A DNA stretch of 64,000 nt, taken from contig ML992508.1 of assembly GCA_010093995.1 (NCBI GenBank), positions 716,506 to 780,505 of the forward strand, given 5' to 3'. This DNA is from Elsinoe ampelina (Eukaryota). The notes beneath the pieces were generated by a model. The model did not search any database, was not told where the DNA came from, and saw only the letters and a program-made list of their open reading frames with translations. Each line of letters starts with the position of its first letter. Within the stretch, counting starts at the first letter, position 1. This document shows, one piece after another, positions 16,720 to 40,430 of the stretch. The translations under genes and the position numbers were made by a program.

Positions 16720-18162
16720 TCAATACATGCTTCTCAATTTGCCGACATCTGTCAAATTCCCAATGTTCGTGAACGCTTCATAGGCTCTAGTAGCCCGATC
16801 CTCCCCGATAGCAATCGAGACCTGATCCATAAACTTCTTCTTCAAATCAGCTATGGTCAACGGATTCTCCACACTACCAATAGCATGCTCGATATGCTTG
16901 TCCAGCTTGCTGCCGTCGTTGAAAGTGACGGTAACATAAGCCTGTGCATTGTCCACCGTCTTGTCAGTAGTAACGTTGACCTTCTTCCTCATGTCGATGA
17001 CAGTCTGGTTCTTGACGACTTCGTCTGTGAATTGAGATGGAGTGGCTACGCCGTACAGTAGGCCGATTGCTGTGGCATGGAAGATGCTGAATTTGCCCTC
17101 GAGTCCGGTCTGGGGATCAGTCTGGCCGGTCAAGATCAGGACCTGTGGGTTCACTCGGAGATCGATGCTTTGTACGTCGTCGAAAGACTTGCCCTCCTCG
17201 AGAGTCTGGTTGTGTAGCTGAGTGGCGCCGTCGATCGATGGGTGCATGACGATACCGCATGGGAAGGGCTTGAAGGTGTTCTTCTCAATTTCCCATATCT
17301 CGCCGAGCTGGTCGAAGTAGGCCGTGGCATTCTCGCGGGTGCTCACGACGTGCAGCCAGCCGAACTTGGCTTCGAGGCCTTGGAGAGAGCTGGTGTAGCC
17401 ATTGCTGGCGAGTAGAGCACCAAGCATGCCACCTTGAGCTGCTCGACCGACGTGAAACGACTTGGTGTCAGAACCGAAATATTCCTGCATTCCTACCACC
17501 TGCGTAGCTGCTATACCTATGGCGTTTTGAGTGGTGACAGTGTCGGAGCCGAGCAGCTTGCTGACAGCCACCGCAGCGCCGATGGAGCCAGTCGTGCTTG
17601 TGATGTGCCATCCGACATCATAGTGCTCAGGATAGACTGAGAGACCGAGCTTGCATTCTGCTTCTACGCCGGCCACGAATGCTGTGATGAAGTCCCGCCC
17701 AGAGACAGGAGCTTTCCACTCTGCTACGGCCAGGAGTGCGCTCGCGACCGGTCCAGCTGGGTGAATGATTGTCTCGAGATGCGTGTCATCATAGTCGTCG
17801 ACGTGAGATGCGATACCGTTGATGAAAGCTGCGACTTGGGCATCGGCAAAGCCATTGCTGATCGAGCTGTTCGCCCCGAGTATGCTGGATGTCGCCGGCC
17901 CACTGAACGCCGCGAGAGTTGTGTTCTGTGCTATTTGTGGGGCATCTTGTATATAGCCACCAATGGCACAACCACCCCAATTGTAGAGACTCTTGACTGC
18001 AGAGTCAATGACACCAGTGGTCAAGTTCGCATAGGTCAGATTGGTCGCCCAAGAAGCGAGCTGTAAAGTTGCCATGTTGTGATGAGTCCGTCTTGCATTA
18101 TACAGAGGCAACCTACCTATTTGAACAAGTCTCTGGCCGAAGCCGCTCAGTTTAATAGCCAT
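16720..18162 (-). CDS. MmgE/PrpD family protein (2-methylcitrate dehydratase / cis-aconitate decarboxylase-like); alternative ATG at 18075
   Basis: NGIASHVDDYDDTH...IHPAGPV, GWHITSTTG, DTKSFHVGRAAQ, FKPFPCG, GKFS. TATAAAT at about 18298-18304 argues against the 18408 start. Confidence 0.9.
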   Translation of the reverse strand: MAIKLSGFGQRLVQIGRLPLYNARRTHHNMATLQLASWATNLTYANLTTGVIDSAVKSLYNWGGCAIGGYIQDAPQIAQNTTLAAFSGPATSSILGANSSISNGFADAQVAAFINGIASHVDDYDDTHLETIIHPAGPVASALLAVAEWKAPVSGRDFITAFVAGVEAECKLGLSVYPEHYDVGWHITSTTGSIGAAVAVSKLLGSDTVTTQNAIGIAATQVVGMQEYFGSDTKSFHVGRAAQGGMLGALLASNGYTSSLQGLEAKFGWLHVVSTRENATAYFDQLGEIWEIEKNTFKPFPCGIVMHPSIDGATQLHNQTLEEGKSFDDVQSIDLRVNPQVLILTGQTDPQTGLEGKFSIFHATAIGLLYGVATPSQFTDEVVKNQTVIDMRKKVNVTTDKTVDNAQAYVTVTFNDGSKLDKHIEHAIGSVENPLTIADLKKKFMDQVSIAIGEDRATRAYEAFTNIGNLTDVGKLRSMY

Positions 18163-18826: not shown

Positions 18827-19684
18827 TCAACCACCCAATTCTGCGAGGCTACGCTTGAAGAACCCACACACCTCTCGACTACAATCAATGTGGACCATCC
18901 TCTCAACCTCCTCAAACATCACCCGCCGAGGACCATATGTGATGTCCTCGATCAGCAGATGGATGTACTGCATCATCGTCTTGCCTTCCGAGATGGCTTT
19001 GGCACCCCCGCCATAATTCTCCCAATAGCTAGTCTGCAGATCTTCGCAAAAGTAGATGCCACCCGGCTTCACGGCTTTCCACAGATGCTGCAGACTGGTC
19101 TTCTGCTGCTCCATTGTATGACCACCGTCGTCGACAATGATGTCAAAATCTTTGCCATGCTCCGCCATGAATTTCTCCAGGAACACCGGATCTCCTTGGT
19201 CGCCAGTTATGATGGTGGCACCCGTTGTCTTGTCAGCCCACTGCTCTGCGCATTTGGCGTCGTATTCCATGAAGTACAGATCGACGTATGGGAAGTACTC
19301 GAGCCAGGTATAGTAACTTGCGCCTGGACCATAGCTCATGTCGCAGCCCAGGCCAATTTCCAGCATTTTGAACTTCTTGTACCTCCAGGCTGGTAGGTGA
19401 TTTTCGTACATGTCTTGATAGCTGTGGTCGGTAACCTTGTCGGTACCGTGCTTGAGGGCTATCTCGTAGAAGGTAGGAGCAGTGCTCATGACAGGAGCAA
19501 GCTTGGAGACCTGATGGGATCCAGGTTGTGAATCAGCATTGTCGGCAGGCTTGAAAGGCCAATACTTCTTGGTGGCTTCTGGCAAATGGTCACGAGATTG
19601 GTGAATCATCCCAATGATGAAGACTATGGTGGCCGCAATACCAACATATAGTGGCCAACGGCCCTTGGTGCTGATTGCTGTCAT
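18827..19684 (-). CDS. Type II membrane SAM-dependent O-methyltransferase, MycE-like catalytic domain (CHIP5-like)
   Basis: Short basic N-terminus, TM helix WPLYVGIAATIVFIIGMI and stem; HGTDKV..HSY, MLEIGLG, TGDQGD..FL, FDIIVDDGGH, VKPGGIYFCEDLQTSYW. Confidence 0.85.
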   Translation of the reverse strand: MTAISTKGRWPLYVGIAATIVFIIGMIHQSRDHLPEATKKYWPFKPADNADSQPGSHQVSKLAPVMSTAPTFYEIALKHGTDKVTDHSYQDMYENHLPAWRYKKFKMLEIGLGCDMSYGPGASYYTWLEYFPYVDLYFMEYDAKCAEQWADKTTGATIITGDQGDPVFLEKFMAEHGKDFDIIVDDGGHTMEQQKTSLQHLWKAVKPGGIYFCEDLQTSYWENYGGGAKAISEGKTMMQYIHLLIEDITYGPRRVMFEEVERMVHIDCSREVCGFFKRSLAELGG

Positions 19685-20008
19685 AGTAGAGTGCACTTGA
19701 AGGATGGAAGGCTAGCTGAAACGTTGGCAGTAGATTCACCTAAGAAAATCATAGCGTTATGAAGGAACCCAAGTAGCTGATCCCTCTGCATACCATACGA
19801 AGATGATCTCCAAGTCCTTGCTTGACGTGGAATGTGAATCCGGCTTCATATCTCAGTCCAGCCAAAGCTGACGCTGCAAAGGGGCTAGCCAGCCTGATCT
19901 GCCCCGCCCAACATTCATTAACGACCCTTCCTCCTCCTGGTTTCAATAGGAGGGTCACCCCCTCGGAAACTTGATGAATCGTTTCCACTTTGATGATTTG
20001 CATTGAGC

Positions 20009-21467
20009 ATGGCGTTTTACGAGATAAATCTGGTCGTCCTGGTCCTTATCAACATCGCTCTTTACCTTCGGCAATGGAGGACCACTTCATCTCCGGACAC
20101 CGACCACGATGATGGAGGCGAACAACGCGCGGAAGACGCAAAATGGCAGGACAATGCCTCGAGGAAGTCATCCTTTGTTCGGACGTATCTATCAGCATAT
20201 CTGCTTGCGACAGCAGGAGATTGGCTTCAAGTGCGTGATCATGTTATCGCTGTCCATTCGCAAGGCTGTCGCTGACCATCGCAGGGACCGCACATCTACG
20301 CAATATACCGCTACGAAAAGGCGCTTCCAGAGACTACCACTGCCGCTCTCTATGCTACAGGCTTCATCTCTGGCGCCGTCGCCGCGACTTTCGTTGGACA
20401 ACTCGCTGACAAGTATGGCCGGAAGACTACATGTCTCATCTACTGCGCTTCCTACATTGCCTGCTGTCTTGCTATGCTGTCTGATACACTGCCGATACTC
20501 TACCTAGGCCGCATCTGTGGAGGTGTATCGACCACTATTCTGTACTCCGCCTTCGAGACGTGGATGATCACCGAATTCCATAACCAAGGTCTCGCAACTA
20601 CTGGTCTCTCCACAGCTACCATCTTTGGCAGGCAAACGACTTTCAACTCTGTTGTAGCCATCTTCACAGGCATAGCAGGCGAAGCTCTCGTAAGCGCTAC
20701 TGGAACCCGGAAAGCACCATTCCTCCTCGCAGTCGCTGTCTTCGTCTTGGCCGGGCTTTGGATCGCTACAACCTGGTCCGAGAACTACGGCAACGCAGAA
20801 GATGGACGGCCTCGCTCTTCTCTGAGCGAGATTGGGTCCGCAGCCAAAGACATGTGGCGAGACAAGCGTGTCTTTGCACTCACAATCGCTTCATCCGTCT
20901 TCGAAAGCATGATGTACCTCTTCGTCTTCTTCTGGTCAGCGGCGATCAAGTCCGCTCGTTCCATCGCCGGGGTCAAAGACGACCCACCCTTCGGCCTGAT
21001 CTTCAGCTGTTTCATGTGCGCCATGATGGCTGGGAGCCTGCTATTCACAATGTTCAGCGCCAGGCATGATGTGTTTAGCACGAGCTACGTGCTGAAGATT
21101 GCCATGACATTTGCGAGTCTGGCGTTAATGAGTACCATCGTCAACTACAGGGAAGATTTGGTCTTCTGGGCGTTCTGCATCGTGGAGATGTGTGTTGGGC
21201 TTTACTTTCCTAGCATGAATTTCTTGAAGGGGGCGATCGTCGAAGACGGGAGGAGGGGGAAGATTTACAGTCTCATGAGGCTGCCTCTGAATGCGTTTGT
21301 GGTGATCGCCCACAGTCTAGCGGAGGAGGGTGAGTCGTTCCTATCCACGTCCTGGATGTCCCGCGTGCTGACATGCTATAGGCGATCATCATCGGAACAA
21401 CGTCTTCTTGAACTTTGGCGGAGGACTGCTCGTTGCATTCATAGTCGTGCAGAGATTCATCGAGTAA
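20009..21467 (+). CDS. MFS transporter, MFSD5/MFS_5 (DUF791, annotated as molybdate-anion transporter) family, 3 exons
   Basis: YLLATAGDWLQ|GPHIYAIY, GQLADKYGRK, GRICGGVSTTILYSAFETWM, FESMMYLFVFFW, PPFGLIFSCFM, YSLMRLPLN. Introns 20231-20284 and 21330-21381. Confidence 0.9.
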
Positions 21468-21677
21468 ATTTAGACCTCATAGAATACAAGATACCCTTTC
21501 TGCGTCTACAACGAGCCGTCAATGTCGTTGCCGGGTATCATTACATCTTCTGTCTGTCGCCGTGCCCTTGGTCATCCATCGCGACTTGCTTCGCGGTAGC
21601 TCCGGGTCTTCAGCCTGGTCGGACCTTTTGAAAGCCATGTATTGCTGCCAAATTGCGCCTCCGTATATCACTTGATA

Positions 21678-22014
21678 TCATACGTAGACGCCCACTGCGC
21701 AGATCATGTATACCGCTCCGAATCCGAAAGCTAGCGATGCTGGAATGCCAACAACGGGAACATTGGTGAGAGACGGGTCTAGGAAAGTCAGGTATGGTCT
21801 CTCGACTCTCGAACATGGTTGTACTGAGACTGAAATATCCGGCCAGAATGATAGCTATAGCCATGTCAGAGAGTGCTCGCGAGGATTCCAAGGAGTCCAT
21901 ACCGAAGGACAGGAGCGAGAACCCAACGAGGAAATGGCTGCCTTTGCCTATCGCTGGCTCATAAGGCGAGTTGATGGCAGTGTTCCAGACATCCAGGAGA
22001 GGCTGTGACGCCAT
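21678..22014 (-). CDS. OST5: Oligosaccharyltransferase subunit OST5/TMEM258, 3 exons
   Basis: Spliced product ends ...PVVGIPASLAFGFGAVYMICAVGVYV*; N-terminus has SPYEPAIGKG. Confidence 0.85.
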
Positions 22015-37454: not shown

Positions 37455-38219
37455 TCAGCTATACGTTGTGCGTCTTATAGCTGCTGAATCAATCTTACTC
37501 CCTACCATGGACGTCCAGTGCGACTTTGCTGTTCCTAAGTCTCCCTGTTCGATGAGCCCTTGGCGTAAGAAGAACGGAAACTCGATCTTAGACCATAGAG
37601 CATGGAAGTCCTCGTTTCTGATAGTGCATTCATCGTACTTGATATAGAACTGAGCTAGCGATCTAGCAGATTCTTCACTCCGCCCAGGTTGTATTGTTCC
37701 ATTGCTTCTTAACATGTCGATATATCTCGGGATATAAGGCTCTATTCGTTCCTTACTTGGGTCACGGAAGATAATGGAAAAGTCGCTAAGATATCTCCCG
37801 AAGTCGAAGTTCTGTAATAGTTTTTGAAGGGCATCTACAGTATCGAAGTCGACTGGTAGATCAATAATCAGACTCTTTAGCACACTTGTGATTCCAGGTG
37901 GAAAGCGTAGAAGTGCAGCAGCGTAAGGCTCTACCGAGCATGGTTTGTCCGGAAGAGTAATAACGATTTCGACCGATCCGTAGAAGATAGTAAGCGCTTC
38001 ACTATACGTCGTCTTACAAGCCGTTGTAAGCGACCATATATAGGGATTGCGTTGGTCAGGATTGCGTTGGTTAGGCCCCCGTAGACGCCAGACTTGCTTT
38101 GTCGGTTCAATAGTACTTTGAGCCAGATAAAGACTATACTCGAATCGCTGCAAGGTCGCGATGCTTTTAAAGATAAGCATACGTATCTCTGGAGGGGCGG
38201 CTAGCAGATTGAAGACCAT
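37455..38219 (-). CDS. Hypothetical protein with N-terminal F-box-like motif
   Basis: MVFNLLAAPPEIRMLIF; LTTACKTTYSEALTIFY; lower GC and TpA-rich codons. Confidence 0.65.
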   Translation of the reverse strand: MVFNLLAAPPEIRMLIFKSIATLQRFEYSLYLAQSTIEPTKQVWRLRGPNQRNPDQRNPYIWSLTTACKTTYSEALTIFYGSVEIVITLPDKPCSVEPYAAALLRFPPGITSVLKSLIIDLPVDFDTVDALQKLLQNFDFGRYLSDFSIIFRDPSKERIEPYIPRYIDMLRSNGTIQPGRSEESARSLAQFYIKYDECTIRNEDFHALWSKIEFPFFLRQGLIEQGDLGTAKSHWTSMVGSKIDSAAIRRTTYS

Positions 38220-38849
38220 GATGTGTTATGAGTGACTGTGAGGAGGACGGAGAGGTGAATAGAACGAGAAAGGACCAGGATAGCCTAGTAAGAGAAAGGC
38301 TTTGGGAAAAGCAAGTTGTAAGTCTTACTGAAAACTTGACGACGCTTAAGTGAAATTTTGCTGCGGTGTCAATTTTGGTACACAACACGGACGAAAGCAA
38401 TTGACCGACGGGTCGTGGAAGCAGGACGTGCCAGCGATTATGAATCATGTTGGGTTTTACCTTCATCATTCTTCTATTACATGCCTTGATGTGGATGAGG
38501 CATTGGCGTCATTGGGTTCATCTGCATCGTCCCGCCCTCTATTCCCTCTAGGCCAAGCATATCAAACACCGACCTCCCGTCACCTAGCCAATTGCCAAGA
38601 AACATGCTCATGTCCGGGTGCTTTGATGTCCTGGAACAGCCAGGAAGCTGATGATCAGTGGGGAACGGCGACAGAGGTGCCGAAATGGGGCTCATTTCTT
38701 AGCCGCAACGGGAGTTTGTTCCTCTTTGCTTACTAAGCTTTGATGCTGCTTCATCCGCTTCATCGGAAGGCAAGTAATAGACCACATTTACAATATTCTA
38801 AGGGAGTACAATGCCCACCATCTAGCTCCATTGGTAGCTGGACCGGCTA

Positions 38850-40430
38850 GATATATATAGATATTTCTAAAGAGGTACCTCTAAGAGTGTAAGTTTCTTT
38901 AGTCTTAGCAGCTTTATAGAGTTATATTACTAACTATCTTATTACTTTAAGGCTTAATTATTCTATCAATTTTGAACTTAAAGGTGTTATTCTTATTTAG
39001 AGTAATTATTATAACCTTATACATCTCTATATTTCTTTCTTAGCTTCTTAAAAGCTACTAAACTATAGTACTTCCTTACCTTTTAGTTAAACTCCTTTAC
39101 TTCCTAGATAGCCTTAAGTCTTATATTAGTCTCTAACCTTATAGCTTTCTTCTAATTACGAACTATAAATATAAAGGCTTTAAGAGACTTCTTTTATTTA
39201 TAGTAGAGTATTTTATAAGGATTTAAATCTAGTAAAAAGGCTAGATAACTACTAAATTTAATACTAAGCTTCTTAATATAGTAGGCTATAATCTTTTAAG
39301 CCTTATAACAAATAGTGCTATTGTCTTTAATTACTACTATATAGCAGCTAGAGTTAGAGCCTTTAAGCTACTCTATATAAGGAAAGAGTAGCTTATTATA
39401 GACTTTAAAGGCATACTAGAGACTATTAAGTTTACGTACTTTAGCCTTAAAGTTGTTATATTTAAATAGCTATTCTAGCCTCTTCTTATAAGTCTTATAC
39501 TTAAAACTAGCTTTAGTATTACTCTTATTAACTTTATAGATATAGTATTAAAGAGCCTCTAGCTACTAGTACTCCTCTAAGTCCTTATTATAGATAGCTC
39601 GCTAGTGCTTCTTATCTATAAGCCGGCGGTTTATAGCGTTAATAACGGCTAGTTTACTCTTTAGATTGTACTACTTAACATTATTAAAGTTCTACACGAT
39701 ATAAGGCTATAGTATAGAGCAATTTTAAGCACTTATAGTAGCCTATTACTTATATATAAAGTTTAGTAAGATCTCTGTTCTAATTAGAGTTACTCCTTAA
39801 GGTATAGAGACTTATTTATTAGCTATACTACTAAAGGTCTACTTCTTTTTATTATAGATAATAAGAATAGCTTATTCTTTAATATATCTATAAAGCTTAC
39901 TACTATCCTTAGTGTATTTAAGTCGATGCTCTAGAGAATACTAACTAGGCTTCTTAATCTTATAATTGTAACTAATAGGCTTATTACTCTCTAGGTTGCT
40001 AGTGTAATAATCTAGATAGTCTTTAATATTAAAGACCTACTTCTTATAAAGCTTTAGAATGTTTATATCGAGTTCTTAGAGTACTTTATGCTTATTTATC
40101 TAGTTAGCGGAGATAACTAGATCCTAGCTACTATTTAGCTAGATAGTATTTTAAACTATAAAAGACTTAGCCGAGCCTAGCGTAATAAGTGGTTTTAGGC
40201 CTTATAGGCCTTTATTCTTTATATACTTTATTAATTTATATAATTTACTACTCTTAGCAGCCTTTAAAACCTTAGAGAATAGGCTTTAGAGAGTGTTCTT
40301 ATAGATTCTAAGGAGCTTCTCTACCTCTAAGATAGAGAGGCTAAGATTAAAGTAATAAGTAATTATAGTTTAATAGAGCTATAAAGAGAAGTCTTTACCA
40401 CGTCCTATAATCGTTTAAGCTTTAATAACA
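38850..40430 (-). mobile_element. RIP-degenerated Tc1/mariner (IS630-Tc1-mariner) DNA transposon; ends approximate
   Basis: Abruptly AT-rich, TpA-saturated block with almost no CpA/TpG and no ORFs. Minus strand about 39340-39190 reads VIKDN...KA*K...YLAFLLDLNPYK, which reverts by C>T/G>A reversal to EDN...KARK...HPAFSPDLNPCE. Confidence 0.8.

What the first reader, a model, noticed from the sequence alone, without database searches (positions are those of the whole stretch)
18827..21467. Candidate glycan O-methylation module: lumenal sugar O-methyltransferase head-to-head with an MFSD5/SAMT-1-type transporter
Seen: two genes diverge from a 324-bp spacer (ATGs at 19684 and 20009). One has glycosyltransferase-like type II topology (short tail, one TM helix, stem) fused to a domain with the motif order of MycE-type sugar O-methyltransferases (TDK..H, LEIG, GDQ, DIIxDDGxH, PGGxYxxED). 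The other is an MFSD5/DUF791 transporter. Known: this family is usually annotated as a molybdate transporter, but the C. elegans member SAMT-1 is needed for glycan O-methylation and was proposed as a Golgi SAM importer. Inference: a lumenal methyltransferase needs imported SAM, so the pair may be a co-regulated unit that methylates fungal surface or cell-wall glycans. This would give a function to two poorly understood families. The next gene is the N-glycosylation subunit OST5, which may be coincidence.
Basis: partly seen in the sequence, partly recalled or inferred. Interest (0 to 1): 0.82.

Follow-up and report, generated by a model that had tools for sequence, protein, structure and literature searches.

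The report
Fungal glycan-methylating enzyme–transporter gene pair
Many moulds keep a membrane-anchored sugar-methylating enzyme gene right beside a transporter gene whose plant and worm relatives are needed for glycan methylation, which points to a candidate enzyme for putting methyl caps on fungal surface sugars.

Summary
Observation confirmed. An intronless 285-aa gene (18827-19684, minus) diverges across 324 bp from a three-exon 450-aa MFS_5 transporter gene (20009-21467; both introns seen spliced). The 285-aa protein has a short basic tail, one 18-residue hydrophobic helix, a stem, and a domain whose closest structures are MycE/SpnK, with MycE's two Mg ligands and catalytic His kept. The pair is conserved. 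Relatives carry consecutive accessions in 15 of 25 named species in which both genes were seen (not a blind sample), and two metagenome contigs nearest to Helotiales show the same head-to-head layout, so three fungal classes are involved. Ten species, mostly Hypocreales, appear unlinked. The two gene trees track each other, including off-taxonomy placements. Plant (GoSAMT) and worm (SAMT-1) MFS_5 proteins are needed for Golgi glycan methylation. Best reading (0.72): the transporter supplies SAM to a lumenal enzyme that O-methylates a cis-diol sugar on secreted or wall glycans. The lead substrate is terminal rhamnose, since Lomentospora has both the pair and 2-O-methylrhamnose caps. Activity, location and transported substrate are untested. 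I found no description of the pair in ten paper searches. OST5 adjacency looks incidental.

The parts
18827..19684 (-). Type II membrane, MycE-like sugar O-methyltransferase gene (285 aa, one exon; databases label relatives 'hard-surface induced protein 5')
19601..19657 (-). Signal-anchor helix, residues 10-28, after a 9-residue tail with two basic residues
18851..19489 (-). [quoted passage not shown]
19118..19132 (-). DDGGH motif, residues 185-189: D186 = MycE Mg ligand D275, H189 = catalytic base H278
   Evidence: alignment, residue roles, conservation
19040..19045 (-). ED motif, residues 214-215: D215 = MycE Mg ligand D304
19685..20008 (.). 324-bp divergent spacer, candidate shared promoter (co-regulation not shown)
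   Evidence: contigs reach 19817 from the left and start at 19959 on the right (contigs cannot show starts)
20009..20230 (+). MFS_5 transporter exon 1 (N-terminal hydrophobic segment)
20285..21329 (+). MFS_5 transporter exon 2
21382..21467 (+). MFS_5 transporter exon 3 with stop; whole protein 450 aa
21678..22014 (-). OST5 gene, 80 aa, three exons; a neighbour, probably not part of the module

Best explanation
A two-gene Golgi (secretory-pathway) glycan O-methylation module. (1) The MFS_5 protein imports cytosolic SAM into the lumen, possibly in exchange for SAH (inferred from plant and worm mutants; transport not assayed for any member I read about). (2) The enzyme is held in the membrane by an uncleaved N-terminal anchor with its catalytic domain in the lumen (inferred from tail charge, helix length and paired cysteines). 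(3) As in MycE, Mg2+ held by D186/D215 chelates a cis-diol of a sugar, H189 deprotonates one hydroxyl, and SAM methylates it (residues shown; chemistry inferred). (4) The acceptor is a terminal sugar of glycoprotein or wall glycans in transit. The best single guess is the 2-OH of terminal rhamnose (about 0.4 given the module); mannose or another cis-diol sugar are the alternatives. The genes stay adjacent because the enzyme is useless without lumenal SAM and both are dispensable, so they are kept, lost or moved together (inferred).
For: Fold and sequence: the only 2 PDB sequences matched are MycE (E=4e-22) and SpnK (1e-17). Foldseek ranks 1-10 are all MycE/SpnK, E about 1e-16; the next listed is 1.5e-6. 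D186/H189/D215 are kept in 114/117/117 of 119 closest hits. MycE-type enzymes need Mg and a cis 2',3'-diol, as in allose and rhamnose (PMC9275233 passages), and a MycE-like Mimivirus protein was proposed to methylate a surface glycan (PMC10117803 passages). Topology: 85 of 93 near-full-length hits have an N-terminal hydrophobic window. In 68 of those 85 the N-side is more basic (14 equal, 3 less). The stretch has a median of 18 residues after a median 8-residue tail, and 1 of 85 has an A-x-A cleavage-like motif. Cys268/Cys273 occur together in 230 of 257 sequences of the eukaryote-rich sets against 4 of 46 in the other metagenome loci and face each other across a hairpin, as a lumenal disulfide would. 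Linkage: consecutive accessions or locus tags in 15 species (tally); head-to-head DNA in L001 and L003. Co-evolution: patristic r=0.73 over 22 species, partial r=0.61 given class and order, 1 of 5000 within-class shuffles as high. Family function: GoSAMT1/2 are Golgi MFS_5 proteins whose loss lowers polysaccharide methylation (bioRxiv 2021.07.06.451061; abstract, passages, Discussion). samt-1 loss lowers glycan methylation (PMC6422873 passages). Product lead: Lomentospora prolificans has the pair (PKS11718/9) and 2-O-methylrhamnose caps on conidial O-glycans (PMC4396840 and PMC7412847 passages). Wider family: fusions to an O-fucosyltransferase domain (P0332) and to glycosyltransferase/capsule domains (P0415), 2 of 25 long hits scanned. 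11 of 27 non-fungal loci have a glycosyltransferase, sugar epimerase, sulfotransferase or ABC-2 exporter among the 1-2 flanking ORFs scanned (no background control, and one is probably a housekeeping GT28).
Against: No activity, localisation or co-expression data. 10 of 25 species with both genes have them on different contigs or far-apart tags, and L018 has the enzyme with no MFS_5 within about 7 kb upstream or 8 kb downstream. Colletotrichum, Metarhizium and Beauveria have the transporter but no enzyme among listed hits (only 120 of 501 and 120 of 1403 hits were listed). Tree correlation between two neighbouring or vertically inherited genes is expected in part from shared ancestry; I had no control gene. 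The AU test rejected the taxonomic grouping for the transporter (p=0.0016, 0.0003) but not for the enzyme (p=0.065, 0.35), and the groups were named after the trees were seen. MycE Tyr208 aligns to D115, not Tyr. Cys145 is also common in non-fungal loci (52 of 61), so the 114/145 pair is weaker evidence of a disulfide. No methylated glycan is reported for Elsinoe or Aureobasidium in what I read. Human MFSD5 acts in an organism where glycan O-methylation is not reported (PMC7773692 passage) and was speculated to carry ATP or other adenosyl compounds (PMC12130231 passages).
Confidence: 0.72

Rival explanations
1. Same lumenal SAM supply, but the acceptor is a small glycoside or glycolipid (secondary metabolite, xenobiotic glycoside, GIPC or GPI glycan) rather than a glycoprotein or wall polysaccharide.
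For: All characterised close structural relatives act on glycosylated natural products. Hypocrealean fungi have tandem glycosyltransferase-methyltransferase pairs that methylglucosylate small molecules (PMC8669486 passages).
Against: No glycosyltransferase or PKS/NRPS family among the 46 window stretches scanned (36 of the 83 long ORFs plus 10 nearer stretches). The conserved partner is a transporter, not a GT. Tail-anchor-stem architecture is that of Golgi glycan-modifying enzymes.
Confidence: 0.13
2. The pair is functionally linked but the transporter carries something else the enzyme needs or makes (SAH only, Mg/Mn, a nucleotide sugar or another adenosyl compound), or the enzyme methylates a non-sugar acceptor in the lumen.
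For: No in vitro SAM transport is shown for GoSAMTs. Human MFSD5 overexpression disturbs Golgi glycosylation and was speculated to move ATP or adenosyl compounds. The enzyme is metal-dependent by its motifs.
Against: Loss of the plant and worm members lowers methylation of several unrelated glycans, which is most simply a SAM shortage. The diol-binding residues are kept.
Confidence: 0.09
3. The adjacency is an ancient accident of synteny; the transporter is a molybdate carrier and the enzyme is unrelated to it.
For: Databases name the family 'molybdate-anion transporter' after the MOT2 report cited. 10 of 25 species appear unlinked.
Against: The window's other neighbours (OST5, GCN5, PrpD, DUF6914, NRDE-2) hit none of the 80 metagenome loci, although only L003 has long flanks with the pair. 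The pair persists across three classes. PF05631 was scored 0 in Aspergillus nidulans and Neurospora crassa in a 2008 survey (PMC2409186 table rows); both need molybdenum for nitrate reductase (recalled), and old gene sets can miss genes. The GoSAMT authors note no biochemical or localisation evidence for plasma-membrane molybdate transport.
Confidence: 0.06

Closest known systems
MycE / SpnK / ElmMI / ThnM1 (actinobacterial Mg-dependent sugar O-methyltransferases)
   Same: Catalytic fold, D275/H278/D304 equivalents, top sequence and structure hits.
   Different: They are soluble, carry an N-terminal domain of about 160 residues, and act on antibiotic-bound 6-deoxysugars. This protein has a membrane anchor and stem instead, paired cysteines, and no Tyr at the Tyr208 position.
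Arabidopsis GoSAMT1-3 and C. elegans SAMT-1 (MFS_5, putative Golgi SAM transporters)
   Same: Pfam MFS_5 family and an N-terminal hydrophobic segment.
   Different: In the passages read, no linkage to a methyltransferase gene is described, fungi are not among the species listed for the GoSAMT tree, and the worm's glycan methyltransferases are stated to be unknown. I held no GoSAMT or SAMT-1 sequence, so orthology was not tested.
Plant Golgi polysaccharide methyltransferases (DUF579 GXM, pectin methyltransferases)
   Same: Lumenal glycan methylation fed by a Golgi SAM importer.
   Different: Different enzyme families: no DUF579 or pectin-MT Pfam hit here, only Methyltransf_24 just below cutoff.
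Mimivirus R132
   Same: Stand-alone MycE-like catalytic domain proposed to O-2-methylate a sugar of a surface polysaccharide.
   Different: Viral, in a sugar-synthesis cluster, 221 aa, also untested.
Beauveria/Metarhizium GT-MT methylglucosylation pair
   Same: Two-gene fungal unit that O-methylates a sugar.
   Different: Its partner is a glycosyltransferase and it acts on small molecules. I could not read the founding paper and did not compare its methyltransferase sequence.
MOT2 / human MFSD5 'molybdate-anion transporter'
   Same: Same Pfam family and database label.
   Different: Genomic context here points to methylation, not molybdenum.

Membership tests
MycE-type metal-dependent sugar O-methyltransferases | Class I SAM-binding fold closest to MycE | tested here: met
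   pLDDT 88; Foldseek ranks 1-10 are MycE/SpnK, rmsd 2.5-3.5 A
MycE-type metal-dependent sugar O-methyltransferases | Mg-binding Asp275 and Asp304 | tested here: met
   D186, D215 by the alignment (20-residue tag offset is my inference); roles; 114 and 117 of 119 hits
MycE-type metal-dependent sugar O-methyltransferases | Catalytic His278 | tested here: met
   H189; 117 of 119 hits
MycE-type metal-dependent sugar O-methyltransferases | Active-site Tyr208 | tested here: inconclusive
   Aligns to D115; Y118 in the same loop is kept in 111 of 119 hits
MycE-type metal-dependent sugar O-methyltransferases | N-terminal domain (residues 1-160) of the soluble two-domain enzyme | tested here: not met
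   Match covers only MycE's C-terminal domain; replaced by anchor and stem. Works like MycE; not filed as a member of the two-domain family
MycE-type metal-dependent sugar O-methyltransferases | Mg/SAM-dependent methylation of a sugar hydroxyl | not testable with these tools
   Needs an enzyme assay
Type II secretory-pathway membrane enzymes | Short basic N-tail, one uncleaved hydrophobic helix, stem, C-terminal catalytic domain | tested here: met
   (hydropathy and charge rules only; no dedicated signal-peptide predictor was available)
Type II secretory-pathway membrane enzymes | Golgi residence with lumenal catalytic domain | not testable with these tools
   Indirect only: paired cysteines
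MFS_5 (PF05631) transporters | Pfam MFS_5 score above the curated cutoff | tested here: met
   130 bits against cutoff 25; Atlas clusters 97-100% MFS_5 at score 0.99
GoSAMT/SAMT-1 Golgi SAM transporters | 13 hydrophobic segments (N-terminal one plus 12) | tested here: inconclusive
   A crude hydropathy scan found 8, including the N-terminal one; expected pattern
GoSAMT/SAMT-1 Golgi SAM transporters | Golgi location; loss lowers glycan methylation; SAM transport | not testable with these tools
   Needs experiments
GoSAMT/SAMT-1 Golgi SAM transporters | Orthology to GoSAMT1-3 / SAMT-1 in a tree | not tested
   No named GoSAMT or SAMT-1 sequence was among the listed hits
Fungal GT-MT methylglucosylation module | Methyltransferase gene tandem to a glycosyltransferase gene | tested here: not met
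   Neighbours are MFS_5 and PrpD; no GT family in 46 stretches scanned

The most novel reading that the evidence does not exclude
This anchored MycE-like family is the missing eukaryotic glycoprotein-glycan O-methyltransferase. In fungi it makes caps such as 2-O-methylrhamnose on surface O-glycans, and its anchored, often doubled relatives in diatoms do the same in algae, where no such enzyme was characterised as of a 2020 review. The gene pair would then be genomic evidence, independent of the plant and worm mutants, that MFS_5/MFSD5 proteins are Golgi SAM importers, and a portable two-gene cassette that has moved between fungal classes.
Probability: 0.4. Interest if true: 0.85.

Novelty: new variant of a known kind. 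Interest (0 to 1): 0.76.

Why it matters
O-methyl sugars on fungal, algal and worm glycans are recognised by lectins and antibodies, but reviews I read state that the methyltransferases are unknown in C. elegans and microalgae, and my searches found none described for fungi. This pair names a specific enzyme with a predicted mechanism and a first substrate to try. It also bears on whether MFSD5-family proteins, labelled molybdate transporters across databases, carry SAM: a small dispensable pair in a laboratory-friendly fungus such as Aureobasidium makes both questions directly testable. An enzyme that O-methylates glycans in the Golgi would also be a glyco-engineering tool.

Tried and rejected
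No assembly is held for this window, so paralogues in the same genome could not be counted; synteny was read from accession numbers and contig lengths, which give adjacency but not orientation. Metagenome scan (best 80 of 514 confirmed stretches kept): of 6 fungal loci, two show the pair (L001, L003), one has long flanks without it (L018), and three have under about 720 bp upstream and are uninformative (L002, L023, L053). True enzyme-transporter fusion: looked for among 25 long representatives and P0429/P0428/P0444, none found. The 695-aa Aureobasidium transporters carry a Stc1 domain and look like merged gene models. A suspected tandem duplicate in E. australis was rejected: P0460 has no similarity to the enzyme. 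My first cysteine count used wrong positions (269/274) and was redone with 268/273. No listed run is on record as RNA. The laid contigs show splicing, but the enzyme gene has no intron, so its cover in 2 of 4 runs is only a weak sign of transcription, and contig depth cannot show co-expression. No solved structure matched the transporter. Viral relatives (331 stretches) were fetched and not analysed. 3-O-methylmannose as product was considered: a review says it is known only from Coccidioides and Uncinocarpus (PMC9409882 passages), and no Onygenales name appeared among listed hits, so it is not favoured. The Fonsecaea paper's O-methyl hits were analytical methylation only. The primary MycE, tectonin/SAMT-1 and GT-MT papers were not read; what I say of them comes from citing papers. 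'chip5' had 0 occurrences in the 15 papers listed of 20. No complex prediction was run. Earlier-findings look-ups returned nothing. No supplements were read; those of the GoSAMT preprint (tree, topology) may bear on orthology.
Full report
OBSERVATION. The sequence is as described. A one-exon gene of 285 aa runs from 19684 to 18827 on the minus strand, and a three-exon gene of 450 aa runs from 20009 to 21467, with 324 bp between the ATGs. Contigs of public runs skip both predicted transporter introns at GT..AG (intron 1 in 2 of 4 runs from two studies, intron 2 in 1 of 4) and both introns of the convergent OST5 gene (4 of 4) (Ost5 hit). The enzyme region is covered in 2 of 4 runs, which for an intronless gene is weak evidence of transcription. 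Exon 2 of the transporter is identical over 348 aa to a protein listed as Elsinoe ampelina.

THE ENZYME. Pfam gives only Methyltransf_24 just under its cutoff. The two PDB sequences matched are MycE and SpnK, and an AlphaFold model (pLDDT 88) finds MycE/SpnK chains at ranks 1-10, about ten orders of magnitude ahead of the next listed hit. With a 20-residue tag offset (my inference), MycE D275, H278 and D304, the Mg ligands and base named in PMC9275233 and PMC10117803 (passages), fall on D186, H189 and D215. These are kept in 114, 117 and 117 of 119 close hits (2 of 121 dropped for short cover). Tyr208 aligns to D115; a conserved Y118 lies three residues on. MycE's N-terminal domain is absent. 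In its place are a short tail, a hydrophobic helix and a low-confidence stem. Among 121 sequences, 93 had at least 45 residues before the TDK motif; 85 of these have a hydrophobic window, and in 68 of the 85 the N-side is more basic, against 3 less. The stretch has a median of 18 residues and 1 of 85 shows an A-x-A motif. Cys268 and Cys273 sit across a hairpin and co-occur in 230 of 257 scored sequences of the three protein-search sets, against 4 of 46 in the non-fungal, non-diatom loci. Cys114/Cys145 co-occur likewise, but Cys145 is also common in those other loci. Together this favours an uncleaved type II anchor with a lumenal, disulfide-bonded domain; it is inference, not measurement.

THE TRANSPORTER. 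It scores 130 bits on Pfam MFS_5. The GoSAMT preprint (10.1101/2021.07.06.451061; abstract, passages and Discussion read) places Arabidopsis GoSAMT1-3, C. elegans SAMT-1, human MFSD5 and Chlamydomonas MOT2 in this family. It shows Golgi location and reduced xylan and pectin methylation in the double mutant, and says in vitro transport remains to be assayed. PMC6422873 (passages) reports reduced glycan methylation in the worm mutant and says the worm methyltransferases are unknown. PMC12130231 (passages) ties human MFSD5 to Golgi glycosylation and speculates on ATP or other adenosyl cargo. A 2008 table (PMC2409186) scores PF05631 as one copy in 5 of 9 filamentous ascomycetes and none in 4, including A. 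nidulans and N. crassa.

LINKAGE. Comparing the two hit lists and cluster look-ups gives consecutive locus tags or accessions in Elsinoe fawcettii, E. australis, Sphaceloma murrayae, Aureobasidium melanogenum (three assemblies consecutive, one two apart), Zasmidium cellare, Apiospora arundinis, A. aurea, Pestalotiopsis fici, three Seiridium species, Xylariales sp. PMI_506, Microdochium bolleyi, Niveomyces insectorum (Hypocreales) and Lomentospora prolificans. Ten species show the listed copies on different contigs or far-apart tags: Myriangium duriaei, Diaporthe batatas, Coniochaeta sp. 2T2.1, Stylonectria, three Trichoderma, Cladobotryum, Tolypocladium capitatum and Purpureocillium takamizusanense. 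The tally is 15 of 25 (hand-entered). Class and order labels other than Niveomyces are recalled. At DNA level, L001 and L003, whose enzymes are nearest Hyaloscypha bicolor (89%, 65%), carry the transporter head-to-head about 1.1-1.4 kb upstream; L018 does not. OST5, GCN5, PrpD, DUF6914 and NRDE-2 hit none of the 80 loci.

CO-EVOLUTION. In quick trees both genes place Diaporthe with Myriangiales and Niveomyces with Xylariales-type sequences, away from the main, unlinked Hypocreales clade (the careful search did not finish). Over 22 matched species, patristic distances correlate (r 0.73; 0.61 after class and order; 1 of 5000 within-class shuffles as high). AU tests reject the taxonomic groupings for the transporter (p 0.0016, 0.0003) but not for the shorter enzyme (0.065, 0.35), and the groups were chosen after seeing trees. 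This fits joint transfer or joint ancient duplication. With no control gene, it does not prove co-evolution beyond shared descent.

WIDER FAMILY. The profile finds 17,707 representatives at E<=0.001. Diatoms hold anchored, often doubled versions. Of 25 long hits, one is fused to an O-fucosyltransferase domain and one to glycosyltransferase and capsule domains. In 11 of 27 non-fungal loci a flanking ORF is glycan-related; 25 of the 49 ORFs scanned had no family at 1e-12, and there was no background control.

MECHANISM AND SUBSTRATE. Shown: architecture, catalytic residues, family membership of the transporter, conserved adjacency. Inferred: Golgi location, SAM import, Mg-assisted methylation of a cis-diol sugar on glycans in transit. 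MycE-type enzymes favour the cis 2,3-diol of 6-deoxysugars, and L. prolificans, which has the pair, caps conidial O-glycans with 2-O-methylrhamnose (PMC4396840, PMC7412847 passages). Terminal rhamnose is therefore the first substrate to try, but this rests on one species; nothing I read reports methylated glycans in Elsinoe or Aureobasidium. Rivals are a small-glycoside or glycolipid acceptor (0.13), another cargo or acceptor (0.09) and accidental synteny with a molybdate carrier (0.06).

NOVELTY. Ten searches of the held library (listings, with passages of 15 papers) showed no description of this gene pair, of a fungal GoSAMT, or of a fungal glycan O-methyltransferase. Most subscription papers are outside that library. 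The logic (Golgi SAM importer plus glycan methyltransferase) is known from plants and the chemistry from actinobacteria; the anchored eukaryotic MycE-like family and its linkage to MFS_5 are what appear new. Verdict: a real, conserved two-gene module, most likely for Golgi glycan O-methylation; new variant of a known kind; interest 0.76.

Noticed in passing
P0127-P0129, P0135 (transporter); P0054, P0098 (enzyme): Diaporthe (Sordariomycetes) copies of both genes group with Elsinoe/Myriangium (Dothideomycetes) in quick trees, suggesting transfer between plant-associated fungi; in D. batatas the listed copies are no longer adjacent.
   Followed up: partly
P0173, P0181, P0206, P0215, P0216; P0050: Transporters of insect-pathogenic Hypocreales (Niveomyces, Metarhizium, Beauveria, Cordyceps) nest among Xylariales-type sequences, apart from Trichoderma/Tolypocladium copies; Beauveria namnaoensis lists two copies three tags apart.
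   Followed up: partly
L010:7518-9338, L011:7827-9614; P0431, P0434: Diatom-like relatives have an N-terminal anchor and two catalytic domains in tandem; neighbouring ORFs in L010/L011 also start with anchor-like stretches and were not identified.
   Followed up: no
P0332, P0415: Fusions of the domain to an O-fucosyltransferase domain, and to GT2/GT4 plus capsule-synthesis domains.
   Followed up: no
window 21381-21778: One contig spans the spliced transporter and the spliced, convergent OST5 gene, which suggests overlapping 3' UTRs.
   Followed up: no
window 16720-18078 (-): Full-length MmgE/PrpD-family gene just downstream of the enzyme; not found beside the pair in other loci.
   Followed up: partly
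window 38001-40000: GC drops to 36% against about 52% elsewhere, with no long ORF; possibly a mutated repeat.
   Followed up: no
P0263, P0264, P0459, P0429, P0444: Over-long database proteins that look like merged gene models (transporter plus Stc1 domain; enzyme plus neighbour) rather than true fusions.
   Followed up: partly
L081-L160: 331 stretches in viral contigs encode distant relatives of the enzyme, best segments 26-39% identical among the 80 kept; context not examined.
   Followed up: no
names: Many relatives are labelled 'hard-surface induced protein 5', a name I recall from Colletotrichum surface-contact screens; no paper on it was found. It may hint at expression during spore attachment.
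   Followed up: partly
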